From assembly GCF_035084215.1 (NCBI RefSeq), contig NW_027138580.1, forward strand, positions 496,001-560,000: a stretch of DNA of 64,000 nucleotides, given 5' to 3'. Shown one piece after another: positions 8,264 to 46,800 of the stretch. This DNA is from Heptranchias perlo. Its lineage: Eukaryota. Both the position numbers and the translations under genes were made by a program. The notes beneath the pieces were generated by a model. The model was not told the DNA's origin, searched no databases, and saw nothing but the letters and a program-made list of their open reading frames with translations. Numbering within the stretch: position 1 is the first letter of the stretch; the number at the start of each line of letters is the position of its first letter.

Positions 8264-9355
8264 TCAGTCCTGGATGTGATTAACAGCAGCGATAACAGCA
8301 GAATCCAACACGTGAACTCGCTGGTGCCTCAGCAGGTAGGACGAGCGGGTGAATCCCTTCCCGCACACGGAGCAGGTGAACGGCCTCTCCCCGGTGTGAA
8401 CCCGCTGGTGAGCCAGCAGGTGTGCCGACATCCTGAAGCTCTTCCCGCACTGGGCGCAGCTGAAGGGCCTCTCCCCGGTGTGAATGCGCTGGTGGGACAG
8501 CAGGTTGGAGGACTGAGTGAATCCCTTCCTGCACACGGGGCAGGTGAAGGGCCTCTCCCCGGTGTGGATGAGCTGGTGGGTCAGCAGGTGGGACGACATC
8601 CTGAAGCCCTTCCCGCACTGGGAGCACCGGAACGGCCGCTCGTCGGTGTGGATCTGCTTGTGCTTCTTCAGCTCCTCGGTGCTCTTGAAACTCTTGCCGC
8701 AGTCGCTGCAGGCGAAGGGCCGCTCCTCAGTGTGCACCCGCTGGTGGGTCAGCAGGTTGGAGGACTGGGTGAACCCCTTCCCACAGAGCGGGCAGACGAA
8801 CGGCCGCTCGCCGGTGTGGACCCGCTGGTGGGTCAGCAGGTGCGAGGGCTTGGTGAACCCCTTCCCGCAGACCGAGCAGATGAACAGCCACTCGCCGCTG
8901 TGGACCCGCTGGTGGGTCAGCAGGCTGGACGACTCGGTGAAGCCCTTCCCGCAGGCGGAGCAGACGAACGGCCGCTCGCCGGTGTGGATGCGCCGGTGGA
9001 TCTCCAGTTTGGACGGGTAGCTGAACCCCTTGCCGCAGTCCCCGCACTTGTAGGGCTGCTCCCTGCCCGCCCCCGGGCCGGCCGGGCGGCCAAAGGCGAG
9101 GCCGCGCAGGCACAGCTTCTCCCCGCTGCGCCTGCTCAGGCCAGGTAACTGGTCAGCCCGCGGGAACCCTCTGCCCCGGGCAGGCCCCTCCGGCTGCTTT
9201 TCCAGCCACACCGCTGTCTCGAGTCTCTTCTCGCACACAAACATTTCCCCCTCCACGCTCATAGGCCGGTAATATTCAGGTCCCGGGGATTCGAGGGGCT
9301 CTGTCACACGGTGACGGGATGTTTCGCTTGAGTTTCCCGTCTGCAAATCGTCCAT
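8264..9355 (-). CDS. C2H2 zinc-finger protein (ZNF-A), 9 fingers, 363 aa from the first exon-internal ATG
   Basis: Nine C-x2-C-x12-H-x3-H fingers with TGERPF-type linkers. Acceptor TTTCTTGTGCAG|G puts the exon start at 9365, ATG at 9355 (MDDLQTGNS…). AATAAA on the minus strand at 8167-8172. An upstream coding exon cannot be excluded. Confidence 0.88.
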
Positions 9356-10189
9356 TTCTGATGCCCTGCACAAGAAATTTACAAAAGTCGTCACTCTAAG
9401 TGCGGGATAGGAATTCAGAGCAGGCAATACAGAACGTTCAAAAGGAAGGAATTATCAGGGCAAGAGTGATGTCCTGGACTAGTTTCGAACGCCGTGGGGA
9501 GGGGGGAGGCGGCCAGAGCGGAATTTCCCAGATTCTCCCCCCTCCAAATCATCCTGGGTTTTTATCTGGTTTTCCCTCTTTCCCAGGGCATCACGTGGTT
9601 TTGGGTGGGGTGGGGACTGTATATATTGTGATACACAATTGTGTGGGACTGGCTGGATGGACCAAAGGGTCTTTTCCTGTCTGTCTACGTCCGTATTCTT
9701 TCCCCTTCTGGCTGCTCCTCCCGCCATCCCCAAGTGTTGAAAACCAAATCCATCAAAGTGTCCGCTATTTCTTCCTCTCCCTCCTCTCTGATTCCGCGAC
9801 CCCGGTGCTGGGGCCAGTTTCCGCAGTCGGCAGCTGCCCTATCCCCAGTAGCCTCCTGATTGCCTAATCTTCATAAGTGAGCGTTGGCAGGCTGACTATC
9901 AGGGGAAAATATCAGTGCTGACCCCCACTCAGTCTATCACCTGATGGCCTACACACGCCCCTTTTCAGTAGATAGTTCCACTCAGTCCCCCCACCCCTCC
10001 TCCCTCAGACAGCCCCCAATTGGTCTCTGTATTTCTAGACTTGGTGCTGTGTGGTTTCCGTTACCCGATCTTGAAAGAAAACACTTACCAGCTAACGACA
10101 AACCGCACCAGCCAGTATGCAACATGCCAAAGAAGCCGCTCTATCTGACTCGCTCAGACTGCGCGTGCTGGGTACGCCTGGTAGCCCGA

Positions 10190-22962: not shown

Positions 22963-23772
22963 TCAAGTGTGAACTTGCTGGTGCCTCAGCAGGTAGGAGG
23001 ACCGGGTGAATCCCTTCCCGCACACGGAGCAGGTGAACGGCCTCTCTCCCCTGTGCACTTGCTGGTGGGTCAGCAGGCTGGACGATCGCTTAAACCTCTT
23101 CTCACAGTGAGTGCACCTGAAGGGCCTCTCGTCCGTGTGAATGCGCTGGTGGATCAAAAGCTCTTCCGAGCTGCGGAAGCTCTTCCCGCAGTCAGAGCAG
23201 GTGAAGGGCCTCTCGTCCGTGTGAATGCGCTGGTGTCTCAGCAGGCTGGACGACTGAGTGAATCCCTTCCCGCAGTAAGGGCACCTGAACGGCCTCTCCC
23301 CGGTGTGAATGCGCTGGTGTTTCACCAGCTCCTCAGAGCTTTTAAAGCCCTTCCCACAGTCGGAGCATTTAAAGCGTCTCTCGTCGGTGTGAACCCGCTG
23401 GTGCGTCAGCATGTTGGAGGACTGAGTGAATCCCTTCCCACACACGGAGCAGGTGAACGGCCTCTCCCCGGTGTGGCTGTGCCGATGAGTTTCCAGCTCC
23501 GACGGGTAATTGAATCCCTTCCCGCAGTCCCCACACTGATACGGTTGCTCCCCGGTGTGGCCGCGTCTGTGCCTCAACATGTTGGATGATTGGCTGAAGG
23601 CCCGTCCACACAACGAACAGATGTACGGTATCCTACTCTTGTGATTGGTGCTTTCTCCTTCCGCATTCAAAGGCCGACGATATTCAGGTCCTGATGAATC
23701 GAGGGACTCGGTCAGATCTTGACGTGAGGTTTGGTTTGAGTTTCCCGTCTGCAAATACTCCCCTTCTAACAT
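22963..23772 (-). CDS. C2H2 zinc-finger protein (ZNF-B), 8 fingers, 269 aa
   Basis: Eight intact fingers. Acceptor AAACTCCTTTTTACAG|G is followed immediately by ATG ([16 protein letters not shown]…). AATAAA on the minus strand at 22851-22856. Confidence 0.9.
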
Positions 23773-23879
23773 CCTGTAAAAAGGAGTTTACCAAAATTCA
23801 TCATTGTGAACACAGGATAGAAATTCAGAGCAGACAATTCTAGTTTCTGTGGAACATTCTCTCCTCTCTCATTCCTCCC

Positions 23880-25540: not shown

Positions 25541-25792
25541 GATAAGGTGAGGAAAACCCCCAGTGGTGGAGAGCATTGGGAACCATAGGCCCAAAGTCAC
25601 CTGTTCCTCAGAAGCAATGCTGCACTCACCACAGGTCAAGTCTTAAATTACTCACACACTGTATCCCAAATTATCTTTTTTTTATTCGTTCATGGGAAGT
25701 GGGCGTCGCTGGCAAGGCCAGCATTTGTTGCCCATCCCTAATTGCCCTTGACTGAAAGAAATTTTTATCCAATTTGCATTTGAATGCTTTAT

Positions 25793-27680
25793 AGACAGAG
25801 CTAAGCGATTCCACAACCAACGGATCAGATCAAAGCTCTGCAGTCCTGCCACATCCAGTCGTGAATGGTGGTGGACAATTAAACAACTAACGGGAGGAGG
25901 AGGCACTGCAAACATCCCCATTCTCAATGATGGTGGAGTCCAGCACGTGAGTGCAAAAGACAAGGCTGAAGCATTTGCAACCATCTTCAGCCAGAAGTGC
26001 CGAGTGGATGATCCATCTCGGCCTCCTCCCGATATCCCCACCATCACAGAAGCTAGTCTTCGGCGAATTCGATTCACTCCACGTGATATCAAGAAACGGC
26101 TGAGTGCACTGGATACAGCAAAGGCTATGGGCCCCGACAACATCCCAGCTGTAGTGCTGAAGACTTGTGCTCCAGAACTAGCTGCGCCTCTAGCCAAGCT
26201 ATTCCAGTACAGCTACAACACTGGCATCTACCCGACAATGTGGAAAATTGCCCAGGTATGTCCTGTCCACAAAAAGCAGGACAAATCCAATCCGGCCAAT
26301 TACCGCCCCATCAGTCTACTCTCAATCATCAGCAAAGTGATGGAAGGTGTCGTCGACAGTGCTATCAAGCGGCACTTACTCACCAATAACCTGCTCACCG
26401 ATGCTTAGTTTGGGTTCCGCCAGGACCACTCGGCTCCAGACCTCATTACAGCCTTGGTCCAAACATGGACAAAAGAGTTGAATTCCAGACGTGAGGTGAG
26501 AGTGACTACCCTTGACATCAAGGCAGCATTTGACCGAGTGTGGCACCAAGGAGCCCTCGTAAAATTGAAGTCAATGGGAATCAGGGGGAAAACTCTCCAG
26601 TGGCTGGAGTCATACCTAGCACAAAGGAAGATGGTAGTGGTTGTTGGAGGCCAATCACCTCAGCCCCAGGGCATTGCTGCAGGAGTTCCTCAGGGCAGTG
26701 TCCGAGGCCCAACCATCTTCAGCTGCTTCATCAATGACCTTCCCTCCATCATAAGGTCAGAAATGGGGATGTTCGCTGATGACTGCACAGTGTTCAGTTC
26801 CATTCGCAACCCCTCAAATAATGAAGCAGTCCGAGCCCGCATGCAGCAAGACCTGGACAACATCCAGGCTTGGGCTCATAAGTGGCAAGTAACATTCGCA
26901 CCAGATAAGTGCCAGGCAATGACCATCTCCAACAAGAGAGAGTCGAACCATCTCCCCTTGACATTCAACGGCATTACCATCGCCGAATCCCCCACCATCA
27001 ACATCCTGGGGGTCACCATTGACCAGAAACTGAACTGGACCAGCCATATAAATACTGTGGCTACGAGAGCAGGTCAGAGGCTGGGTATTCTGCGGCGAGT
27101 GACTCACCTCCTGACTCCCCAAAGCCTTTCCACCATCTACAAGGCACAAGTCAGGAGTGTGATGGAATACTCTCCACTTGCTTGGATAAGTGCAGCTCCA
27201 ACATTACTCAAGAAGCTCGACACCATCCAAGATAAAGCAGCCCGCTTGATTGGCACCCCATTCATCACCCTAAACATTCACTCCCTTCACCAACGGCGCA
27301 CTGTGGCTGCAGTGTGCACCATCCACAGGATGCACTGCAGCAACTCGCCAAGGCTTCTTCAACAGCACCTCCCAAACCCGCGACCTCTACCATCGAGAAG
27401 GACAAGAGCAGCAGGTACATGGGAACAACACCACCTGCACGTTCCCCTCCAAGTCACACACCATCCCGACTTGGAAATATATCGCCGTTCCTTCATCGCC
27501 GCTGGGTCAAAATCCTGGAACTCCCTTCCTAACAGCACTGTGGGAGAACCGTCACCACACCGGACTGCAGCGGTTCAAGAAGGCGGCTCACCACCACCTT
27601 CTCGAGGGAAATTAGGGATGGGCAATAAATGCCGGCCTCGCCAGCGACGCCCACATCCCATGAATGAATAAAAAAGAATT
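25793..27680 (+). mobile_element. CR1-group LINE family 'b', 5'-truncated ORF2 (RT) with a premature stop
   Basis: NYRPISLLSIISKVME, DIKAAFDRVWH, GVPQGSV.GP, FADD. An in-frame TAG at 26406-26408 splits ORFs 25947-26408 and 26454-27671. Poly(A)-like tail. Confidence 0.92.
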
Positions 27681-28880: not shown

Positions 28881-29419
28881 GGCTATCTGAGTCCAGTGGG
28901 GTCCAATAGTCTTCATCTGAAGCTCTCTTATGATTGATACGAATTATTCAGGGTGTATTTGAAATGGTGCACTTGATGGCTAGTTACCATCACCGTGTAT
29001 ATCGGTATAACCTCCTTCAGCGCAACAGCCAGCCTCAAGAGATCCCTGTTCCTCTGACTTCAGCCTCTTTTGCATCCCCTGCTGCCATGCTTGCAGTCAC
29101 CTGCTCCCACTCTCTGGAACAGCCCCCAAACCCTTCCTTTTAGACCCTCTTTATAATTCCAACATCACTAATGACCTGGTCATTATCACATTGCTGTTTA
29201 CGTACAATTTCCTGCAACAGTGATTACGGATTTACAGCTCAGAAGGGACAAGAAAGAAAAGAATGTTCCACGGGAATTGTATGTTTTTGAATTTCTATCC
29301 TGTACTTACAGCGCTGACTTTTGTAAACTCCTTTTGACAGGGTATTAGAAGGGGAGGGTTTGCAGACGGGAAACTCACGTCGGGATCCGACAGAGCCGCT
29401 CGATTCATCGGGACCTGTC

Positions 29420-30373
29420 ATGGAAGAACAAGGCGCCGATCACAGCAGCGACAGACCGTACCCGTGCTCCGTGTGCGGACGAGCCTTCAGCCGATCGTCC
29501 AACCTGGCGAGGCACGAGCGCAGCCACGCCGGGGGGCAACCGTGTGACTGTGCCGACGCCGAGCAGGGATTTCCGTGCCAATCCCAGCCGGGAAAACATT
29601 GCCACAGCCGCACCGGGGAGAGGCCCTACACCTGCTCCGTGTGCGGGAAGGGATTCACTCAGTCCTCCCACCTGCGGACACACCAGCGCATTCACACCGG
29701 GGAGAGGCCCTACACCTGCTCCGTGTGTGGGAAGGGATTCAATTCTTCCTTTCACCTGCTGAGACACCAACTGGTTCACACTGACGAGAGACCTTTCGGA
29801 TGCTCTGACTGCGGGAGCAGCTTTAAAAGTCCCGAGTTGTTGTCCCAGCACCAGCGCGTTCATAGCGAGGAGAGACCGTTCGGTTGCTCGCGATGCACCA
29901 AGAGGTTCAGACGACCGTCCAGCCAGCTGACGCACCGGTGCACTCACGCTGGAGACAGGCTGTTGACCTGCCCTGTGTGCGGGAAGGGATTCACTCGTTC
30001 ATCCCACCTGCTGATGCACCAGCGTATTCACACCGGGGAGAGGCCGTTCACCTGCTCCGTGTGTGGGAAGGGATTCACCCACTCGTCCAACCTGCTGAGA
30101 CACCAGCGGGTCCACACCGGGGAGAGGCCGTTCACCTGCTCCGCGTGCGGGAAGGGATTCACTCAGTCCTCCAACCTGCTGACCCACCAGCGGGTTCACA
30201 CCGGGGAGAGGCCGTTCACCTGCTCCGTGTGCGGGAAGGGGTTCACTTGTTCATCCTACCTGCTGACCCACCAGCACGTTCACACCGGGGAGAGGCCGTT
30301 CACCTGCTCCGTGTGTGGGAAGGGATTCACTCAGTCCTCCCACCTGCTGAGACACCAGCGTACTCACGTTTGA
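29420..30373 (+). CDS. C2H2 zinc-finger protein (ZNF-C), 10 intact plus 1 degenerate finger
   Basis: Acceptor AAACTCCTTTTGACAG|G puts the exon start at 29341. First in-frame ATG at 29420 (MEEQGAD…). The ORF-track start 29360 is TTG. Second finger is degenerate (CDCADAEQGF…HCHSR). Confidence 0.88.
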   Translation: MEEQGADHSSDRPYPCSVCGRAFSRSSNLARHERSHAGGQPCDCADAEQGFPCQSQPGKHCHSRTGERPYTCSVCGKGFTQSSHLRTHQRIHTGERPYTCSVCGKGFNSSFHLLRHQLVHTDERPFGCSDCGSSFKSPELLSQHQRVHSEERPFGCSRCTKRFRRPSSQLTHRCTHAGDRLLTCPVCGKGFTRSSHLLMHQRIHTGERPFTCSVCGKGFTHSSNLLRHQRVHTGERPFTCSACGKGFTQSSNLLTHQRVHTGERPFTCSVCGKGFTCSSYLLTHQHVHTGERPFTCSVCGKGFTQSSHLLRHQRTHV

Positions 30374-34852: not shown

Positions 34853-36684
34853 GAATCCAAAGAGCTTCTACAAATACATAAAGGGCAAAAGAGTAACTAG
34901 GGAGAGAGTAGGGCCTCTTAAGGATCAACAAGGTCATCTATGTGTGGAACCACAAGGGATGGGTGAGATCCTGAATGAATATTTCACATCGGTATTTACG
35001 GTTGAGAAAGGCATGGATGTTAGGGAACTTGGGGAAATAAATAGTGATGTCTTGAGGAGTGTACATATTACAGAGAGGGAGGTGCTGGAAGTCTGAACGC
35101 TCATCAAGGTAGATAAATCTCCGGGACCTGATGAAATGTATCCCAGGACGTTATGGGAGGTTAGGGAGGAAATTGCGGGTCCCCTAGCAGAGATATTTGA
35201 ATCATCCACCACTACAGGTGAGGTGCCTGAAGATTGGAGGGTAGCAAATGTTGTGCCTTTGTTTAAGAAGGGCGGCAGGGAAAAGCCTGGGAACTACAGA
35301 CCGGTGAGCCTGACATCTGTAGTGGGTAAGTTGTTCGAGGGTATTCTGAGGGACAGGATCTACAGGCATTTGGAGAGGCAGGGACTAATTAGGAACAGTC
35401 AGCATGGTTTTGTGAGAGGAAAATCATGTCTCACGAATTTGATTGAGTTTTTTGAAGGGGTAACCAAGAAGATAGATGAGGGCTGTGCAGTAGACGTGGT
35501 CTACATGGACTTCAGCAAAGCCTTTGACAAGGTGCCGCATGGTAGGTTGTTACATAAGGTTAAATCTCATGGGATCCAAGGTGAGGTAGCTAATTGGATA
35601 CAAAATTGGCTTGACGACAGAAGACAGAGGGTGGTTGTAGAGGGTTGTTTTTCAAACTGGATGCCTGTGTCCAGCGGTGTGCCTCAGGGATCGGTGCTGG
35701 GTCCGCTGTTATTTGTTATTTATATTAATGATTTGGATGAGAATTTAGGAGGCATGGTTAGTAAGTTTGCAGATGACACCAAGATTGGTGGCATTGTGGA
35801 CAGTGAAGAAGGTTATCTAGGATTGCAACGGGATCTTGATAAATTGGGCCACTGGGCCGATGAATGGCAGATGGAGTTTAATTTAGATAAATGTGAGGTG
35901 ATGCATTTTGGTAGATCGAATCGGGCCAGGACCTACTCCGTTAATGGTAGGGCGTTGGGGAGAGTTATAGAACAAAGAGATCTAGGAGTACAGGTTCATA
36001 GCTGCTTGAAAGTGGAGTCACAGGTGGATAGAGTGGTGAAGAAGGCATTCGGCATGCTTGGTTTCATTGGTCAGAACATTGAATGCAGGAGTTGGGATGT
36101 CTTGTTGAAGTTGTACAGGGCATTGGTGAGGCCACACTTGGAGTACTGTGTACAGTTCTGGTCACCCTATTATAGAAAGGATATTATTAAACTAGAAAGA
36201 GTGCAAAAAAGATTTACTAGGATGCTACCGGGACTTGATGGTTTGACTTATAGGGAGAGGTTAGACAGACTGGGACTTTTTTCCCTGGAGAGTAGGAGGT
36301 TAAGGGGTGATCTTATAGAAGTCTATAAAATAATGAGGGGCATAGATAAGGTAGATAGTCAAAATCTTTTCCCAAAGGTAGGGGAGTCTATAACGAGGGG
36401 GCATAGATTTAAGGTGAGAGGGGAGAGATACAAAAGGGTCCAGAGGGGCAATTTTTTCACTCAAAGGGTGGTGAGTGTCTGGAAAGAGCTGCCAGAGGCA
36501 GTAGTAGAGGCGGGTACAATTTTGTCTTTTAAAAAGCATTTGGACAGTTACATGGGTAAGATGGGTATAGAGGGATATGGGCCAAGTGCAGGCAATTGGG
36601 ACTAGCTTAGTCGTATAAACTGGGCGACATGGACATGTTGGGCCGAAGGGCCTGTTTCCATGTTGTAACTTCTATGATTCTATG
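34853..36684 (+). mobile_element. CR1 LINE, 5'-truncated, with an intact RT domain (ORF 35136-36605)
   Basis: NYRPVSLTSVVGK, DFSKAFDKVPH, GVPQGSVLGP, KFADD. One TGA at 35094-35096 and no endonuclease domain. Tail TTCTATGATTCTATG. Inserted into a satellite unit at CAGCACAG|TATTACTAG. Confidence 0.95.
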
Positions 36685-38970
36685 TATTACTAGACTGATA
36701 TATAATGTGTACAGCACTGTATTACTAGACTAATATATAATGTGTACAGTACTGTATTACTAGACTAATATATAATGTGTACAGTACTGTATCACTCGAC
36801 TAATATATAATGTGTACAGCACTATTACTAGACTAATAATATATAATGTGTACAGTACTGTATTACTAGACTAATAATATGTGTACAGTACTGTATTACT
36901 AGACTAATATATAATGTGTACAGTACTGTATTACTAGACTGATAATATATAATGTGTACAGCACTGTATTACTAGACTGATATATAATGTGTACAGCACT
37001 GTATTACTAGACTAATATATAATGTGTACAGTACTGTATCACTCAACTAATAATATATAATGTGTACAGTACTGTATTACTAGACTAATAACATATAATG
37101 TGTACAGTACTGTATTACCAGACTAATGCATACAGTACTGTATTACTGGACGAATATAATGTGTACAGTACTGTATTACGAGACTAATAATACATAATGT
37201 GTACAGCACTGTATTACTAGACTAATAATACATAATGTGTACAGTACTGTATTACTAGACTAATAATATATAATGTGTACAGTACTGTATTACGAGACTA
37301 ATAATGTGTGTACAGCACTGTGTTACTAGACTAATATATAATGTGTACAGTACTGTATTAATCGACGAATAAATAATCTGTACAGTACTGTATTACTAGA
37401 CTAATGCATACAGTACTGTATTACTGGACTAATATGTGTACAGTACTGTATTACGAGACTAATAATATATAATGTGTACAGTACTGTATTACTAGACCAA
37501 TATATAATGTGTACAGTACTCTATTACTAGACTAATATAATGTGTACAGTACTGTATTACTAGACTAATATATAATGTGTACAGTACTGTATTACTAGAC
37601 TAATATATAATGTGTACAGTACTGTATGACTCGACTAATATATAATGTGTACAGCACTGTATTACTAGACTAATAATATAGAATGTGTACAGTACTGTAT
37701 TACTAGACTAATATATAATGTGTACAGCACTGTATTACTAGACTAATAATATATAATGTGTACAGTACTGTATTACTAGACTAATATATAATGTGTACAG
37801 TACTGTATCACTCAACTAATAATATATAATGTGTACAGTACTGTATTACTAGACTAATAACATATAATGTGTACAGTACTGTATTACCAGACTAATAATG
37901 TGTGTACAGCACTGTATAACTAGACTAATATATAATGTGTACAGTACTGTATTAATCGACGAATAAATAATCTGTACAGTACTGTATTACTAGACTAATG
38001 CATACAGTACTGTATTACTGGACTAATGTGTACAGTACTGTATTACGAGACTAATAATATAAAATGTGTACAGTACTGTATTACTAGACTAATATATAAT
38101 GTGTACAGTACTGTATTACGAGACTAATATATAATGTGTACAGCACTGTATTACTAGACCAATAATATATAATGTGTACAGTACTGTATGACTAGACTAA
38201 TAATATATAGTGTGTACAGCACTGTATTACTAGACTAATATATAATGTGTACAGTACTGTATTACTAGACTAATAATATTTAATGTGTACAGTACTGTAT
38301 TACTAGATTAATAATATATAATGTGTACAGTACTGTATTACTAGACTAATAATATATAATGTGTACAACACTATGACTAGACTAATAACATATAATGTGT
38401 ACAGTACTGCATTACTAGACTAATATATAATGTGCACAGCACTATTACTAGACTAATGATATATAATGTGTACAGTACTGTATTACTAGACTAAAATATG
38501 TGTACAGCACTGTATTACTAGACTAATAATATATAATGTGTACAGTACTATTACTAGACTAATAACATATAATGTGTACAGTACTGTATTACTAGACTAA
38601 TAATATATAATGTGTACAGCACTATTACTAGACTAATAACATATAATGTGTACAGTACTGTATTACTAGACGAATAAATAAACTGTACAGTACTATTACT
38701 AGACTAATGTGTACAATACTGTATTACTAGACTAATATATAATGTGTACAGCACTGTATTACAAGACGAATAATATATAATGTGTACAGTACTGTATTAC
38801 TAGACTGATATATAATGTGTACAGCACTATTACTAGACTAATAATATATAATGCGTAAGTACTGTATTACTAGACTAATATATGTGTACAGCACTATTAC
38901 TAGACTAATAATATATAATGTAAACAATTTTACAACACCAAGTTATAGTCCAACAATTTTTATTTGAAAT

Positions 38971-39008
38971 CTACAAGCTTTCGGAGGCTTCCTCCTTCGT
39001 CAGGTAAA
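38971..39008 (-). ncRNA. Minimal type-I hammerhead ribozyme motif (solo Penelope pLTR fragment)
   Basis: Minus strand reads TTTAC-CTGACGA-A-GGAGG-AAG-CCTCC-GAAA-GCTT-GTAGA. It has the CUGANGA and GAAA core, a 5-bp stem II, palindromic AAGCUU at stem III and stem I UAC/GUA. Confidence 0.8.
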
Positions 39009-40654
39009 TGTGTAAGTACTGTATTACTGGACTAATATATGTGTACAGCACTGTATTACTAGACTAATAATATGCACAGTACTGTATTACTAGACTAATA
39101 ATATATAATGTATACAGTACTGTATTACTAGACTAATAATATATAATGTTTACAGCACTATTACTAGACTAATAATATATAATGTGTACAGTACTGTATT
39201 ACTAGACTGATATCTTATGTGCACAGTACTGTATTACTAGATTAATGTGTACAGTACTGTATTGCTAGATTAATAATGTGTACAGTACTGTATTTCTAGA
39301 CTAATATCTAATGTGTACAGTACTGTATTACTAGACTAATAATATATAATGTGTACAGTACTGTATTACTAGACTAATAAGTAATGTGCACAGCACTGTA
39401 TTACTAGACTAATATATAATGTGTACAGTACTGTATTACTAGACTAATAATATGTGTACAGTACTGTACTACTAGACTGATCTAATGTGTACAGTACTGT
39501 ATTACTAGACTAATAATAGAAAATGTGTACAGTACTGTATTACTAGACTAATAATATATAATGTGTACAGCACTATGACTAGACTAATAACATATAATGT
39601 GTACAGCACTGTATTCCTAGACTAATAATATATAATGTGTACAGTACTGTATTACTAGACTGATATATAATGTGTACAGCACTATTACTAGACTAATAAT
39701 ATATAATGTGGACAGTACTGTATTACTAGACTAATAATATATAATGTGTACAGTACTGTATTACTAGACTGATATCTTATGTGCACAGTACTGTATTACT
39801 AGATTAATGTGTACAGTACTGTATTGCTAGATTAATAATGTGTACAGTACTGTATTTCTAGACTAATATCTAATGTGTACAGTACTGTATTACTAGACTA
39901 ATAATATAGTGTACAGCACTATTACTAGACTAATAATATATAATGTGTACAGTACTGTATTACTAGACTGATATATAATGTGTACAGTACTGTATTACTA
40001 GACTAATATATGTGTACAGTACTGTATTACTAGACTAATATATAATGTGTACAGTACTGTATTACTAGACTAATATATAATGTGTACAGCACTGTATTAC
40101 TAGACTAATATATAATGTGTACAGTACTGTATTACTAGACTAATAATATGTGTACAGTACTGTATTACTAGACTAATATATAATGTGTACAGTACTGTAT
40201 TACTAGACTAATATATAATGTGTACAGTACTGTATTACTAGACTAATAATATGTGTACAGTACTGTATTACTAGACTAATATATAATGTGTACAGTACTG
40301 TATTACTAGACTAATATATAATGTGTACAGTACTGTATTACTAGACTAATATATAATGTGTACAGTACTGTATTACTAGACTAATATATAATGTGTACAG
40401 TACTGTATTACTAGACTAATATATAATGTGTACAGTACTGTATTACTAGACTAATATATAATGTGTACAGTACTGTATTACTAGACTAATATATAATAAT
40501 ACCCTGCTCACTGTTTACTCTCTGATTACATTGGAAATATCTCTGTCTTCTTTGTCTGCAGAGAGGAGCTCCCCACCCCTCCACCTCACTCCCTCTCCCC
40601 CCGGGTGAACTGTCGAGGGGATCCCCGTGCCCCCTCCCCGGGTGAACTGTTGGG

Positions 40655-41060
40655 AATCCGAGGCCTGTCGAGGATCTCCCTCAATCCGAGGCCTGTCGAG
40701 GATCTCCCTCAATCCGAGGCCTGTCGAGGGTCTCCCTCAATCCGAGGCCTGTCGAGGATCTCCCTCAATCCGAGGCCTGTCGAGGATCTCCCTCAATCCG
40801 AGGCCTGTCGAGGATCTCCCTCAATCCGAGGCCTGTCGAGGATCTCCCTCAATCCGAGGCCTGTCGAGGATCTCCCTCAATCCGAGGCCTGTCGAGGATC
40901 TCCCTCAATCCGAGGCCTGTCGAGGATCTCCCTCAATCCGAGGCCTGTCGAGGATCTCCCTCAATCCGAGGCCTGTCGAGGATCTCCCTCAATCCGAGGC
41001 CTGTCGAGGGTCTCCCTCAATCCGAGGCCTGTCGAGGGTCTCCCTCAATCCGAGGCCTGT
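40655..41060. repeat. 28-bp CpG-containing VNTR (AATCCGAGGCCTGTCGAGGATCTCCCTC), 14 full copies plus a partial
   Basis: Units start at 40655, 40683 … 41047. Confidence 0.96.
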
Positions 41061-41065
41061 TCAGA

Positions 41066-41490
41066 ATCTCCATGGCAACCGATCCCTTTTCCTCTTCTCT
41101 TTCACCGCCCGCCGTTTGTTGCTCCGCCCCCTCCGTGACGCAATCGCGCGCTCCCGGGCCAATGGGAAGCGCGGGGCGGGTCCTGGAGGACTCGGCGGTC
41201 CTCCAACCAATCAGCGCGCGGGGTTGAGCCCCTCCCCCCTCCCCCCTGGCGGGGTCGACCTGCGGCCTTTGACCTCCCGGTGTTGTCTGATCCGGAGTGA
41301 GGGCCGTCGCCTGGTCTTTGTCGCCCCTCTGATTCCCTTCAATGAGCGGCCCCGCTTCCAGCTTCACCCGCGGGCCCGGGGTCCTCCCCCCTCCCCCGCT
41401 CTGTCCCCGGGCCGATCATCGCTTCTTTCCCCGTCTGTTCGCTTCAAATTGTGATTTCCAGGGAGTGAAGCCGAGGAGGAGCAGCAGGTC
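41066..41490 (+). promoter_or_regulatory. CpG island, probable promoter/first exon of ZNF-D
   Basis: RFX-like ATCTCCATGGCAAC (41066), GTGACGCAAT (41135), CCAAT boxes at 41159 and 41207, GC box GGGGCGGG (41173). The next gene downstream on the plus strand is ZNF-D. Confidence 0.62.
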
Positions 41491-41585
41491 TCCATTACTG
41501 GATGTGGAGATGCCGGTGATGGACTGGGGTTGACAATTGGAAACAATTTTACACCAAGTTATAGTCCAACAAATTTATTTTAAAT

Positions 41586-41624
41586 CCCACAAGTTTTCGG
41601 AGGCTTCCTCCTTCCTCAGGTGAA
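41586..41624 (-). ncRNA. Minimal type-I hammerhead ribozyme motif in the 3' pLTR (stem III palindrome mutated)
   Basis: Minus strand reads TTCAC-CTGAGGA-A-GGAGG-AAG-CCTCC-GAAA-ACTT-GTGGG. Confidence 0.7.
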
Positions 41625-41808
41625 CGGTGTGGAAATGACATTTTCGAATCCTTCGCATTTGAAAATCACAGAACAAAGCCTGGTGATGACTGCCCGTTGC
41701 CAAGGCAATCACAGTGAGCAGACAGAAAGGTGTCACCTAAAAGGCCACCGAATATACAAACCCCCCCAAAAAAAGAGAGAGAAGGAAGACAGTCAATGAC
41801 CCGTTATA

Positions 41809-43410
41809 TTAAAAACAGATAACATTTGTTCGCTGGTGGGGTAACGTGTAGTGTGACATGAACCCAAGATCCCGGTTGAGGCCGTCCTCATGGGTGCGGA
41901 ACTTGGCTATCAATTTCTGCTCGACGATTTTGCGTTGTCGTGTGTCTCGAAGGCCGCCTTGGAGAACGCTTACCCGAAGGTCGGTGGCTGAATGTCCATG
42001 ACTGCTGAAGTGTTCCCCGACTGGGAGGGAACCCTCCTGTTTGGCGATTGTTGCGCGGTGTCCGTTCATCCGTTGTGGCAGCGTCTGCATGGTCTCGCCA
42101 ATGCACCATGCTCCGGGGCATCCTTTCCTGCAACGTATGAGGTAGACAACGTTGGCCGAGTCACAGGAGTATGAACCGTGCACCTGGTGGGTGGTGTCCT
42201 CTCGTGTGATGGTGGTATCTGTGTCGATGATCTGGCATGTCTTGCAGAGGTTACCGTGGCAGGGTTGTGTGGTGTCGTGGACGCTGTTCTCCTGAAAGCT
42301 GGGTAATTTGCTGCGAACGATGGTTTGTTTGAGGTTGGGTGGCTGTTTAAAGGCGAGTCGTGGAGGTGTGGGGATGGCCATAGCGAGGTGTTCGTCATCA
42401 TTGATGACATGTTGAAGGCTGCGGAGAACATGGCGTAGTTTCTCCGCTCCGGGGAAGTACTGGACAACGAAGGGTACTCTGTTGGTTGCGTCCCGTGTTA
42501 GTCTTCTGAGGAGGTCTACGCGATTTTTCGCTGTGGCCCGTCGGAACTGTCGATCGATGAGTCGAGCGTCATATCCCGTTCTTACTAGGGCGTCTTTCAG
42601 CGTCTGTAGGTGTCCATCGCGTTCCTCCTCGTCTGAGCAGACCCTGTGCATTCGCAGGGCCTGTCCAAAGGGGATGGCCTCTTTGACGTGGTTAGGGTGG
42701 AAGCTGGAAAAGTGGAGCATCGTGAGGTTGTCCGTGGGCTTGCGGTAGAGTGAGGTGCTGAGGTGCCCGTCTTTGATGGAGATTCGTGTGTCCAAGAAAG
42801 AAACTGATTCTGAGGAGTAGTCCATGGTGAGCTTGATGGTGGGATGGAACTTGTTGATGTTATCGTGTAGTCTCTTTAGTGATTCCTCGCCGTGGGTCCA
42901 TGGAAAGAAAATGTCGTCGATGTATCTGGTGGATAGTGTTGGTTGGAGGTCCTGTGCAGTGAAGAAGTCCTGCTCGAACTTGTGCATGAAAATGTTGGCG
43001 TATTGGGGTGCGCATTTGGTCCCCATGGCTGTTCCGTGTGTTTGGGTAAAGAACTGGTTATTGAAGGTGAAGACATTGTGATCCAGGACGAAGCGGATGA
43101 GTTGTAGGATGGCGTCTGGAGATTGGCTGTTGTTGGTGTTGAGTATTGATGCTGTCGCAGCGATGCCGTCATCGTGGGGGATACTGGTGTAGAGTGCCGA
43201 GACGTCCATCGTGGTGAGAAGTGTTCCTGGTTCAACAGGTCCGTGGGTACTGAGTTTTTGTAAAAAGTCTGTAGTGTCGCGATAGAAGCTGGGGGTTCCC
43301 TGCACGATGGGTTTCAGGATGCCCTCGAAGTATCCAGAGAGGTTCTCACACAGGGTTCTGTTGCCTGATACGATAGGACGTCCGGGTGTGTTGGCTTTGT
43401 GTATCTTCGG
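41809..43410 (-). pseudogene. Penelope RT plus GIY-YIG endonuclease reading frame (N-terminally truncated)
   Basis: Uninterrupted frame from PKIHK (43410) to the stop at 41809. The 28 N-terminal codons of the 561-aa ORF come from the inverted repeat. The YIG motif reads CIG. Confidence 0.85.
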
Positions 43411-43762
43411 GTAAGCATACTCCAAGGCGGCCTTCGAGACACACGACAACGCAAAATCGTCGAGCAGAAATTGATAGCCAAGTTCCGCACCCATGAGGAC
43501 GGCCTCAACCGGGATCTTGGGTTCATGTCACACTACACGTAACCCCACCAGCGAACAAATGTTATCTGTTTTTAATATAACGGGTCATTGACTGTCTTCC
43601 TTCTCTCTCTCTTTTTTTTGGGGGGGTTTGTATATTCGGTGGCCTTTTAGGTGACACCTTTCTGTCTGCTCACTGTGATTGCCTTGGCAACGGGCAGCAA
43701 TCACCAGGCTTTGTTCCGTGATTTTCAAATGCAAAGGATTCGAAAATGTCATTTCCATACCG

Positions 43763-43801
43763 TTCACCTGAGGAAGGAGGAAGCCTCCGAAAGCTTGTGG
43801 A
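43763..43801 (+). ncRNA. Minimal type-I hammerhead ribozyme motif in the inverted pLTR
   Basis: TTCAC-CTGAGGA(43768)-A-GGAGG-AAG-CCTCC-GAAA(43789)-GCTT-GTGGA. Confidence 0.8.
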
Positions 43802-43833
43802 ATTTAAAATAAATCCATTACTGGAGGAAGAGA

Positions 43834-46800
43834 GATAATAATCCATACAGTGTCTATAGGATGGTGATATAGTCCATACAGTGTCTATAGGGTGGTGATA
43901 ATAATCCATACAGTGTCTATAGGGTGGTGATAATAATCCATACAGCGTCTATAGGATGGTGATAATAATCCATACAGTGTCTATAGGATGGTGTTAATAA
44001 TCCATACAGTGTCTATAGGGTGGTGATAATAATCCATACAGTGTCTATAGGATGGTGATATAGTCCATACAGTGTCTACAGGATGATGATAATAGTCCAT
44101 ACAGTGTCGATAGGATGGTGATATAGTCCATACAGTGTCTATAGGATGGTGATAATAGTCCATACAGTGTCTATAGGATGGTGATATAGTCCATACAGTG
44201 TCTATAGGATGGTGATATAGTCCATACAGTGTCTATAGGATGGTGATATAGTCCATACAGTGTCTAGAGGATGGTGATAATAGTCCATACAGTGTCTATA
44301 GGATGGTGATAATAGTCCGTACAGTGTCTATAGGATGGTGATATAGTCCATACAGTGTTTATAGGATGGTGATAATAATCCACACAGTGTCTATAGGATG
44401 GTGATAATAATCCATACAGTGTCTATAGGATGGTGATATAATCCATACAGTGTCTATAGGATGGTGATAATAGTCCATACAATGTCGATAGGATGGTGAT
44501 ATAGTCCATACAGTGTCTATAGGATGGTGATAATAATCCATACAGTGTCTATAGGATGGTGATAATAGTCCATACAGTGTCTATGGGATGGTGATATAAT
44601 CCATACAGTGTCTATAGGATGGTGATAATAATCCATACAATGTCTATAGGATGGTGATATAATCCATACAGTGTCTATAGGATGGTGATAATAATCCATA
44701 CAGTGTCTATAGGATGGTGATAATAATCCATACAGTGTCTATAGGATGGTGATATAGTCCATACAGTGTCGATTGGATGGTGATAATAATCCATACAATG
44801 TCTATAGGATGGTGATAATAATCCATACAGTGTCTATAGGATGGTGATAATAATCCATACAGTGTCTATAGGATGGTGATAATAATCCATACAGTGTCTA
44901 TAGGATGGTGATAATAATCCATACAATGTCTATAGGATGGTGATAATAATCCATACAGTGTCTATAGGATGGTGATAATAATCTATACAGTGTCTATAGG
45001 ATGGTGATATAATCCATACAGTGTCTATAGGATGGTGATAATAGTCCATACAATGTCGATAGGATGGTGATATAGTCCATACAGTGTCTATAGGATGGAG
45101 ATAATAATCCATACAGTGTCTATAGGATGGTGATAATAATCCATACAGTGTCTATAGGATGGTGATAATAGTCCGTACAGTGTCTATAGGATGGTGATAA
45201 TAGTCCATACAATGTCGATAGGATGGTGATATAGTCCATACAGTGTCTATAGGATGGTGATAATAATCCATACAGTGTCTATAGGATGGTGATAATAGTC
45301 CATACAGTGTCTATAGGATGGTGATATAATCCATACAGTGTCTATAGGATGGTGATAATAATCCATACAATGTCTATAGGATGGTGATATAATCCATACA
45401 GTGTCTATAGGATGGTGATAATAATCCATACAGTGTCTATAGGATGGTGATAATAATCCATACAGTGTCTATAGGATGGTGATATAGTCCATACAGTGTC
45501 GATTGGATGGTGATAATAATCCATACAATGTCTATAGGATGGTGATAATAATCCATACAGTGTCTATAGGATGGTGATAATAATCCATACAGTGTCTATA
45601 GGATGGTGATAATAATCCATACAGTGTCTATAGGATGGTGATAATAATCCATACAATGTCGATAGGATGGTGATAATAATCCATACAGTGTCTATAGGAT
45701 GGTGATAATAATCTATACAGTGTCTATAGGATGGTGATATAATCCATACAGTGTCTATAGGATGGTGATAATAGTCCATACAATGTCGATAGGATGGTGA
45801 TATAGTCCATACAGTGTCTATAGGATGGAGATAATAATCCATACAGTGTCTATAGGATGGTGATAATAATCCATACAGTGTCTATAGGATGGTGATAATA
45901 GCCCATACCGTGTCTATAGGATGGTGATATAATCCATACAGTGTCTATAGGATGGTGATAATAGTCCATACAATGTCTATAGGATGGTGATATAATCCAT
46001 ACAGTGTCTATAGGATGGTGATAATAATCCATGCAGTGTCTATAGGATGGTGATAATAATCCATACAGTGTCTATAGGATGGTGATAATAGTCCATACAG
46101 TGTCTATGGGATGGTGATAATAATCCATACAGTGTCTATAGGATGGTGATAATAGTCCATACAATGTCTATAGGATGGTGATATAATCCATACAGTGTCT
46201 ATAGGATGGTGATAATAATCCATACAGTGTCTATAGGATGGTGATAATAATCCATACAGTGTCTATAGGATGGTGATAATAATCCACACGGTGTCTATAG
46301 GATGGTGATAATAATCCATACAATGTCTATAGGATGGTGATAATAATCCACACGGTGTCTATAGGATGGTGATAATAATCCATACAATGTCTATAGGATG
46401 GTGATAATAATCCACACGGTGTCTATAGGATGGTGATAATAATCCATACAATGTCTATAGGATGGTGATAATAATCCATACAGTGTCTATAGGATGGTGA
46501 TATAATCCATACAGTGTCTATAGGATGGTGATAATAATCCATACAATGTCTATAGGATGGTGATAATAATCCATACAGTGTCTATAGGATGGTGATAATA
46601 ATCCATACAGTGTCTATAGGATGGTGATAATAATCCACACGGTGTCTATAGGATGGTGATAATAGTCCATACAGTGTCTATAGGATGGTGATATAATCCA
46701 TACAGTGTCTATAGGATGGTGATAATAGTCCATACAGTGTCTATAGGCTAGTGATATAGTCCATACAGTGTCTATAGGATGGTGATATAGTCCATACAGT

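What the first reader, a model, noticed from the sequence alone, without database searches (positions are those of the whole stretch)
41503..43813. Penelope element with hammerheads in both arms of an inverted pLTR, one intact and one mutated
Seen: hammerhead motifs at 43763-43801 (+) and 41586-41624 (-). The plus copy keeps the stem III palindrome AAGCUU. The minus copy has AAACUU, which breaks the pairing needed for the dimer conformation. Because the copies are on opposite strands, no single transcript carries both in sense. A plus-strand host transcript from the 41.1-kb CpG island would carry the intact one. Inference: a potentially self-cleaving RNA motif has been placed in the 5' region of a zinc-finger gene transcript.
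Basis: partly seen in the sequence, partly recalled or inferred. Interest (0 to 1): 0.7.

Follow-up and report, generated by a model that had tools for sequence, protein, structure and literature searches.

The report
Decayed Penelope transposon with masked hammerheads
This is an ordinary broken copy of a shark jumping gene whose small self-cutting RNA motifs are real but almost certainly idle here, because each needs a partner copy and is zipped up by the element's own mirror-image arm in any RNA that reads through it.

Summary
41503-43813 is a 5'-truncated, decaying Penelope-like element (probably Neptune clade; 93% identical to a shark protein) with a 12-bp target duplication, 410-bp inverted arms and a 70-nt tail on one end. 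Papers describe this layout as typical. Both arms carry a minimal type I hammerhead, and the minus copy has a derived G>A in the stem III palindrome.

Five results argue against a self-cleaving host RNA. (1) The plus copy cannot close stem III alone. (2) A transcript from the CpG island makes the antisense arm first; in the predicted fold 398 of 410 arm bases pair, and freeing the hammerhead costs about 67 kcal/mol. (3) Published minimal hammerheads do not cleave as monomers, and the Anolis one needs element protein. (4) Both arms carry derived changes, and a hit inside the motif is expected by chance (p about 0.3-0.6).

The island plausibly drives the zinc-finger gene, but transcription and exon structure were not testable. 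Any host effect more likely comes from the hairpin, the AATAAA or a pLTR promoter.

The parts
41050..41500 (.). CpG-rich promoter-like host region (two CCAAT boxes, three GC boxes, one TGACG); probable promoter of the plus-strand zinc-finger exon
   Evidence: GC 0.66, CpG o/e 0.84 against 0.45 for the window; motif positions and the 488-bp residual distance to the acceptor; promoter role and direction are inferred
41491..41502 (+). Left target-site duplication, 12 bp, near-palindromic (both strands end in the same 4 bases)
   Evidence: identical to 43814-43825
41503..41572 (-). 70-nt 3' tail of the element, present at this end only
   Evidence: arm alignment stops at 41573; the third copy carries roughly the first half of it
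41573..41979 (-). Left arm: true 3' end of the element (endonuclease C-terminus, 3' UTR/pLTR)
41586..41624 (-). Minimal type I hammerhead with the stem III palindrome broken (41594) and a U-A to U-G change in stem I (41586)
41812..43410 (-). 5'-truncated RT / linker zinc finger / GIY-YIG ORF remnant; no frameshift, 15 residues seen in no shark relative, natural stop lost at 41843
   Evidence: RVT_1 E 1.8e-9; 93% identity over 98% of the query to a Heptranchias perlo protein
43405..43410 (.). Inversion junction with at least 6 nt shared between the RT sequence and the inverted arm
   Evidence: relatives match from the P of PKIHK (43410) and the arm alignment starts at 43405
43405..43814 (+). 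Right arm: inverted duplicate of the element's 3' end without the tail; keeps the natural stop codon
43763..43801 (+). Minimal type I hammerhead with intact AGCU palindrome; would-be cut after 43796
43808..43813 (+). AATAAA just downstream of the would-be cut, facing the same way as a host transcript
   Evidence: also present in the other two copies
43814..43825 (+). Right target-site duplication
38919..39008 (-). Separate ~90-bp 3' remnant of a related element inside a 35-bp satellite; third hammerhead (core 39003-38975), intact palindrome, one compensatory stem I change
   Evidence: 87% to the right arm over 91 bp
43834..51282 (.). 7.4-kb 32-bp tandem array starting 8 bp after the right duplication
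53458..54408 (+). C2H2 zinc-finger exon: acceptor AG ends at 53457; upstream part frameshifted, stop at 53779-53781; open 7-finger frame from ATG 53818

Best explanation
A dead-on-arrival insertion of an abundant shark Penelope-like retrotransposon (most likely Neptune clade) just inside or downstream of a zinc-finger gene's CpG-island promoter. Inferred mechanism: the endonuclease made two nicks 12 bp apart, and both 3' ends primed reverse transcription. One started at the end of the tail and copied about 1.9 kb; the other started 70 nt further in (after AATAAA) and copied about 410 nt. The two copies joined through a 6-nt microhomology. This gives inverted arms, a tail on one side and a hammerhead in each arm as by-products. 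Since then both arms have decayed neutrally by about 1% each, and one random change hit the minus copy's palindrome. The hammerheads are family equipment that works, if at all, as a dimer in tandem element RNA with protein help. Here neither should cleave: each read-through RNA has one sense copy from this element, locked in a ~400-bp hairpin with the other arm. Shown: anatomy, homology, lesions, predicted folds. Inferred: the priming mechanism, neutrality, and lack of cleavage in vivo.
For: Anatomy. Abundant shark family: best hit 93% identical, cluster of 54 sequences; named hits from five shark genera (Heptranchias, Scyliorhinus, Mustelus, Hemiscyllium, Chiloscyllium) among the 120 listed. 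Truncation: the first genuine residue aligns to residue 360 of an 881-aa relative. Decay: 15 of 522 positions carry a residue seen in none of up to 6 shark relatives, including the YIG tyrosine; Y17A abolishes DNA cleavage in the Anolis protein (PMC11167929; equating the two tyrosines is my inference). Roughly 1.3% per base from the ORF agrees with about 1.2% per arm (my arithmetic). Both arms have derived changes: left 4, right 3, 3 not polarised of 10. Chance that 10 differences hit the 15 critical sites is 0.32, the 39-nt motif 0.64. Masking. Literature: an inverted 5'-truncated copy and a tail at one end are common (PMC8557442); dual minimal hammerheads on opposite strands were already seen, single motifs gave no cleavage and dimers little (PMC4209133); the Anolis protein nicks and extends both strands, starts at two sites that define the tail, its hammerhead needs protein, and no RNA-seq ends were found at the cut site (PMC11167929).
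Against: Differences cluster toward the outer end of the arms (7 of 10 within 104 bp, p=0.06), which could mean two template copies or gene conversion rather than plain decay. The chance of hitting the 4 stem III bases specifically is only 0.10. The element keeps a high CpG ratio (0.84) and an open frame, so it is young or unmethylated and time for selection has been short. Folding energies ignore proteins, helicases, editing and kinetics. No expression data and no orthologous loci were available. The two-primer model has not been shown for this family.
Confidence: 0.85

Rival explanations
1. One reading: the host CpG-island transcript carries the intact hammerhead and is cut at 43796, by trans-dimerising with another family RNA or with help from element protein, which regulates or silences the zinc-finger gene.
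For: Core, stems I and II and palindrome are intact in the plus copy; the island is a plausible promoter in the right direction; the family is abundant, so partner RNAs may exist; protein-assisted cleavage is shown for the Anolis element (PMC11167929); intronic and 3' UTR hammerheads are conserved in amniote genes (PMC6155905).
Against: The motif is paired to the earlier-made antisense arm, 66.6 kcal/mol to free; a monomer needs a 2-nt loop; even the plus x plus active dimer (-21.3) is less stable than two folded monomers (-23.8) or the best co-fold (-30.1), and plus x third-copy has a stem I mismatch (-14.9); single minimal motifs showed no cleavage (PMC4209133); eight donor-like sites lie upstream on the plus strand, so the motif is probably intronic.
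Confidence: 0.03
2. The insertion does affect the zinc-finger gene, but not by catalysis: the ~400-bp hairpin (editing, retention, small RNAs), the AATAAA at 43808 (early polyadenylation) or cryptic donors in the antisense element alter the transcript. This can coexist with the best explanation.
For: 398 of 410 right-arm bases pair with the left arm; AATAAA at 43808 and ATTAAA at 41808 are the only such hexamers on the plus strand between 41050 and 53460; donor-like sites at 41620 and 43411, among others.
Against: No expression data; the AATAAA is itself inside the hairpin; splice sites were scored only by a crude consensus count; the exon's upstream half is already disrupted compared with three paralogues in the window, so the gene may be weak or dead anyway.
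Confidence: 0.25
3. The right arm acts as an outward-facing pLTR promoter and starts a new transcript toward the zinc-finger exon. That RNA lacks the left arm, so its hammerhead is unmasked, though still single.
For: In Drosophila virilis the 3' pLTR holds all sequences needed for carcass transcription, and the authors say it could drive downstream genes (PMC2377424); both arms keep an X-box-like palindrome (the RFX label is recalled, not tested).
Against: Promoter activity is unshown for this family; the tail region that controls tissue expression in Penelope is absent from this arm; stem I probability is 0.04 or less even in such short RNAs; AATAAA follows at once and 7.4 kb of satellite lies downstream.
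Confidence: 0.1
4. The G>A at 41594, or the arm differences generally, are assembly errors or were present in the source templates rather than arising after insertion.
For: Reads were not available; differences are somewhat clustered (p=0.06); minimal hammerheads are reported to be highly variable within genomes (PMC4209133).
Against: Three of the 10 differences are CpG transitions, falling on both arms; ORF decay gives a matching rate; two other copies have G.
Confidence: 0.1

Closest known systems
EN+ Penelope-like elements, Neptune clade (Craig et al. 2021, PMC8557442)
   Same: [quoted passage not shown]
   Different: Tail is 70 nt rather than the 30-40 bp quoted; no tandem partial copy; not in a (TA)n microsatellite; this copy has lost the first ~360 residues and the YIG tyrosine
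Minimal hammerheads (min-HHR) of metazoan PLEs (Cervera and De la Pena 2014, PMC4209133)
   Same: Type I core, extra base between positions 9 and 10.1, G10.1-C11.1 pair, 5-bp helix I, no helix III, palindromic 15.2/16.2; dual motifs on opposite strands already reported
   Different: Helix II is 5 bp (7-8 bp in the Schistosoma families); the opposite-strand pair is 2.1 kb apart (about 100-700 bp reported); sharks are not named in the parts I read
PAc, Poseidon element of Anolis carolinensis (Frangieh et al. 2024, PMC11167929)
   Same: Hammerhead in the pLTR followed by a tail; two different 3' ends; insertion consistent with both strands being nicked and extended
   Different: Different clade (Penelope/Poseidon lacks the linker finger per PMC8557442); PAc is active in vitro, this copy is broken; the target here is not AT-rich, although it contains ATT
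Conserved host-gene hammerheads (RECK and other intronic amniote motifs; Clec2 3' UTR), as reviewed in PMC6155905
   Same: A type I hammerhead motif lying in or near a host transcription unit
   Different: Those are conserved across species as isolated motifs. This one is minimal, still inside a young transposon copy, masked by its own antisense arm, and has no evidence of conservation
L1 twin priming (recalled from my own knowledge, not checked in a call)
   Same: Two nicks, two primers, head-to-head inversion joined at a microhomology, flanked by a target duplication
   Different: In L1 the inverted part is the upstream part of the same RNA; here it duplicates the 3' end

Membership tests
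EN+ Penelope-like element | Single ORF with RT then C-terminal GIY-YIG endonuclease | tested here: met
   RVT_1 E 1.8e-9. Local Pfam gave no GIY-YIG hit for the window protein, but it aligns end to end with relatives such as P0026 that carry PF01541; VVY..WCIGE motif visible with Y>C
EN+ Penelope-like element | CCHH zinc motif with two cysteines between GIY and YIG | tested here: met
   C-RKG-C between the motifs and two downstream histidines, read from alignment A1; definition from PMC8557442
EN+ Penelope-like element | pLTR repeats, direct or inverted, with a tail at one end | tested here: met
   410-bp inverted arms, 70-nt tail at the left end only
EN+ Penelope-like element | RT phylogeny sister to telomerase RTs | not tested
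   no tree built; no labelled reference RTs were among the fetched sequences
Neptune clade | CX2-5CxxC linker between RT and EN (shared with Nematis, absent in Penelope/Poseidon) | tested here: met
   C-x4-C-x2-C in A1; definition
Neptune clade | RT groups with Neptune rather than Nematis | tested here: inconclusive
   by elimination only: a preprint found Neptune and Poseidon in vertebrates and does not list Nematis (10.64898/2026.07.22.740005); no tree
PLE minimal hammerhead (min-HHR) | CUGANGA and GAAA..UH core with helices I and II | tested here: met
   all three copies; one compensatory stem I change among 3 sequences, not significant (159 of 500 shuffles reach it)
PLE minimal hammerhead (min-HHR) | Extra nucleotide between 9 and 10.1, and G10.1-C11.1 pair | tested here: met
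   features from PMC4209133
PLE minimal hammerhead (min-HHR) | Palindromic 15.2/16.2 allowing a dimer | tested here: met
   met for the plus and third copies; NOT met for the minus copy, where 2 of 4 pairs are lost
Rfam hammerhead families | Scores against an Rfam covariance model | tested here: not met
   0 matches at gathering score and at E<=10
Active self-cleaving ribozyme in a host transcript | Can fold into the active form in the RNA that carries it | tested here: not met
   by prediction only: masked by the other arm, 66.6 kcal/mol; 2-nt loop as monomer; stem I probability 0.04 or less without the arm
Active self-cleaving ribozyme in a host transcript | Measured cleavage; transcription through the site | not testable with these tools
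   needs bench assay and RNA data
Domesticated host-gene hammerhead | Conserved at the orthologous position across species | not testable with these tools
Non-LTR retrozyme | Tandem repeat with a hammerhead in at least two consecutive units | tested here: not met
   no tandem array in 36000-56000 has the motif in its unit; definition from the preprint

The most novel reading that the evidence does not exclude
The right arm works as an outward pLTR promoter for the zinc-finger gene, giving an RNA with one unmasked minimal hammerhead near its 5' end. That RNA is cut only when family RNA or family protein is present, so the zinc-finger gene's output becomes a sensor of Penelope activity in the germ line: a host gene switched by a trans-activated half-ribozyme.
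Probability: 0.02. Interest if true: 0.75.

Novelty: new member of a known kind. Interest (0 to 1): 0.15.

Why it matters
As it stands it matters little: one more decayed copy of an abundant family with a published layout. Its modest value is as a clean genomic example (clear 12-bp duplication, two different 3' ends, short microhomology at the inversion) that fits the both-strand priming and two start sites reported in vitro for the Anolis element, here in a different clade. It also carries a practical warning for genome scans: in inverted-arm copies any read-through RNA pairs the hammerhead with its own complement, so an intact-looking motif is no sign of activity. If the novel case were true it would show a host gene regulated by a ribozyme half that needs a transposon partner, for which I found no precedent in the papers read.

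Tried and rejected
Rfam scans found nothing; I take this as the models' need for helix III (inference), not as evidence against the motif.

PDB sequence search with the ORF: 0 matches.

Gene model from paralogues: the 41040-41510 flank has no real homologue upstream of the three other zinc-finger exons in the window. A protein search with residues 1-45 of a paralogous exon returned 1 protein from 3 candidates, and by eye its upstream part does not match the insertion flank. Exon or intron status is therefore unresolved. My crude acceptor rule missed a candidate AG at 41461 that I noticed by eye, so it is not sensitive.

Selective retention of the plus copy: rejected because both arms carry derived changes and the hit rate is as expected.

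A minus RNA spanning both arms also masks 38 of 39 motif bases.

Different templates for the two arms: clustering p=0.06-0.07, neither shown nor excluded.

Covariation among the three copies: too few sequences.

Lunse et al. 2016 is not held; I know it only through a review's summary.

Searches for a printed description of this shark family: Penelope+Neptune+inverted+shark gave 0 papers; Penelope+shark+hammerhead ribozyme gave 1 general review; Penelope-like+twin priming+inverted gave 2 unrelated titles. The library lacks most subscription papers and Repbase/Dfam, so this does not show the family is undescribed.

Full report
OBSERVATION. The region 41503-43813 lies between two identical 12-bp direct repeats, 41491-41502 and 43814-43825. 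It has inverted arms at 41573-41979 and 43405-43814 that differ by 10 substitutions and one 3-nt indel in 410 columns. Each arm holds a hammerhead-like motif: 5-bp stem I, CUGAGGA, one extra A, 5-bp stem II, GAAA, two bases, then U and the cleavable U (43796 on plus, 41591 on minus). The plus copy reads AGCU across stem III and the minus copy AACU. A descriptor for this minimal motif, written after seeing it, finds 3 sites in the window and none in 100 of 100 shuffles (the three are copies of one family, and shuffle lengths were not checked). Rfam gives no match at either threshold. It has AGCU, which makes the A at 41594 the derived state, and one compensatory change in stem I (not significant with three sequences).

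WHAT THE ELEMENT IS. The minus strand carries an open frame whose genuine part runs from 43410 to about 41842. It matches RVT_1. Its best relatives are annotated proteins of sharks: 93% identity over 98% of the query to a Heptranchias perlo protein in a 54-member cluster; 4039 of 8000 scored candidates passed E 0.001. The alignment shows RT motifs, a C-x4-C-x2-C linker and a GIY-YIG domain with the two cysteines and two histidines described for Penelope-like endonucleases (definitions in PMC8557442). The linker excludes Penelope/Poseidon and points to Neptune or Nematis; a preprint lists only Neptune and Poseidon for vertebrates. I built no tree. The copy is dead: it starts at residue 360 of an 881-aa relative, and 15 of 522 compared positions carry a residue found in none of up to six shark relatives, including the tyrosine of YIG (two frameshifted relatives were used only up to column 700, and a few of the 15 may be family variants). 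The natural stop survives in the right arm and is lost in the left. The first 39 codons of the listed ORF are simply the antisense of the right arm.

HOW IT WAS MADE (inferred). The two arms end at different places: the left runs 70 nt past AATAAA, the right stops at AATAAA. They meet the RT sequence at a junction sharing at least 6 nt. Each arm's 3' end faces outward at one copy of the duplication. This is what results if two nicks 12 bp apart each prime reverse transcription, at two preferred start sites, and the products join by microhomology. The Anolis PAc protein nicks and extends both strands and starts at two sites that define the tail (PMC11167929). An inverted 5'-truncated copy and a one-sided tail are described as frequent in PLE insertions (PMC8557442), inverted terminal repeats flank the commonest Drosophila virilis form (PMC2377424), and pairs of minimal hammerheads on opposite strands were reported in 2014 (PMC4209133). 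A hammerhead in each arm is therefore the default outcome.

IS THE ASYMMETRY MEANINGFUL? Probably not. Of 10 arm differences I could polarise 7: four derived on the left (41843, 41670, 41594, 41586) and three on the right (43417, 43419, 43733), using relatives, the third copy and CpG loss. The chance that 10 differences include one of 15 critical sites is 0.32, one of the 39 motif sites 0.64, one of the 4 stem III sites 0.10. ORF decay (about 1.3% per base) matches arm decay (about 1.2% per arm) by my arithmetic. Against this reading: both in-motif changes fall in the minus arm (chance 1/4), and the differences lean toward the outer end (p=0.06), so separate templates or gene conversion are not excluded.

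CAN THE PLUS COPY CUT A HOST RNA? The host side is plausible but untested. 41050-41500 is CpG-rich with CCAAT and GC boxes. A C2H2 exon starts at 53458 on the plus strand, and only 488 bp separate it from the insertion site once the element and two tandem arrays are subtracted; the three paralogous exons in the window also have CpG-rich stretches 0.5-5 kb upstream. But a plus RNA from the island makes the left arm first. In the minimum-energy fold of 41462-43833, 398 of 410 right-arm bases pair with the left arm, including 38 of 39 motif bases; the mutated position even pairs as G-U. Forcing the hammerhead stems in 41200-43840 costs 66.6 kcal/mol. A monomer would need a 2-nt loop, and in four shorter RNAs lacking the left arm stem I has probability 0.00-0.04. 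These are nearest-neighbour estimates without tertiary contacts or proteins. Published tests agree: a single minimal motif gave no cleavage and dimers little (PMC4209133); the Anolis motif cleaved only with protein, was not needed for insertion, and left no RNA-seq ends (PMC11167929). Eight donor-like sites lie on the plus strand upstream of the motif, and no acceptor-like site was found between 42501 and it, so it is more likely intronic or in a prematurely ended RNA than in a mature 5' UTR; the scoring was crude. The zinc-finger exon itself has a frameshift and a stop ahead of a 7-finger frame, unlike its three paralogues.

RIVALS. Non-catalytic effects on the host (hairpin, AATAAA at 43808, cryptic donors) are more likely, 0.25, and can coexist with the main reading. 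An outward promoter in the right arm, as suggested for the Drosophila 3' pLTR (PMC2377424), gets 0.1 and is the only route to an unmasked motif. Error or pre-existing variation as the source of the G>A gets 0.1.

WHAT I READ. PMC4209133 and PMC11167929: parts 1-2 of 4 of the text (results, discussion, start of methods). PMC8557442: Introduction and passages. PMC2377424: passages and Discussion. bioRxiv 10.64898/2026.07.22.740005: part 1 of 5 and passages. PMC6765202 and PMC6155905: passages. PMC13725137: abstract and outline only, not used as evidence. Lunse 2016: not held. No supplements were read; the supplementary alignments of PMC4209133 and the preprint's closed tables may already include a cartilaginous-fish motif like this one. 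L1 twin priming and the RFX X-box label are recalled, not checked.

VERDICT. A real feature, correctly described, but an ordinary new member of a known kind. The inference of a self-cleaving motif in a zinc-finger transcript is unlikely on structural grounds. Interest 0.15.

Noticed in passing
window 38919-39008 (-): A ~90-bp 3' remnant of a related Penelope-like element with an intact minimal hammerhead inside a 35-bp satellite; it ends about halfway along the tail, a third 3' end position.
   Followed up: yes
window 41696-41709 and 43678-43691: A near-palindromic X-box-like motif in both arms, the only two sites in the window for the pattern used (they are copies of one site, and the RFX label is recalled). 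Could be part of the pLTR promoter.
   Followed up: partly
window 41491-41502 / 43814-43825: The target duplication is an interrupted palindrome, so both inferred primer ends finish in the same four bases.
   Followed up: partly
window 41610-41625 (+): The antisense of the hammerhead core reads as both an acceptor-like site (AG ending 41619) and a donor-like site (41620), so antisense copies of this family may supply cryptic splice sites to host RNAs.
   Followed up: no
window 8264-9451 (-), 22963-23787 (-), 29327-30373 (+), 53458-54408 (+): Four paralogous single-coding-exon C2H2 genes share the same acceptor and N-terminal leader; two are divergent around the CpG island at 28.1-28.9 kb. Only the 53-kb one has a frameshift and stop in its upstream half.
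   Followed up: partly
window 36683-40497, 40655-41071, 43834-51282, 51367-53064: The promoter-like region and the element are hemmed in by four tandem arrays (35, 28, 32 and 36/47 bp units); the 7.4-kb array starts 8 bp after the right duplication, and several AT-rich units resemble each other.
   Followed up: no
window 41503-43813: The element keeps a CpG observed/expected of 0.84, as high as the adjacent island and about twice the window average; it may be young or unmethylated.
   Followed up: no
window 25752-27671 (+), 35097-36605 (+), 55680-58099 (-): Long open frames that read like LINE reverse transcriptases (two kinds by eye); not scanned against a library.
   Followed up: no
window about 58400-58930: A run of N (assembly gap).
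   Followed up: no
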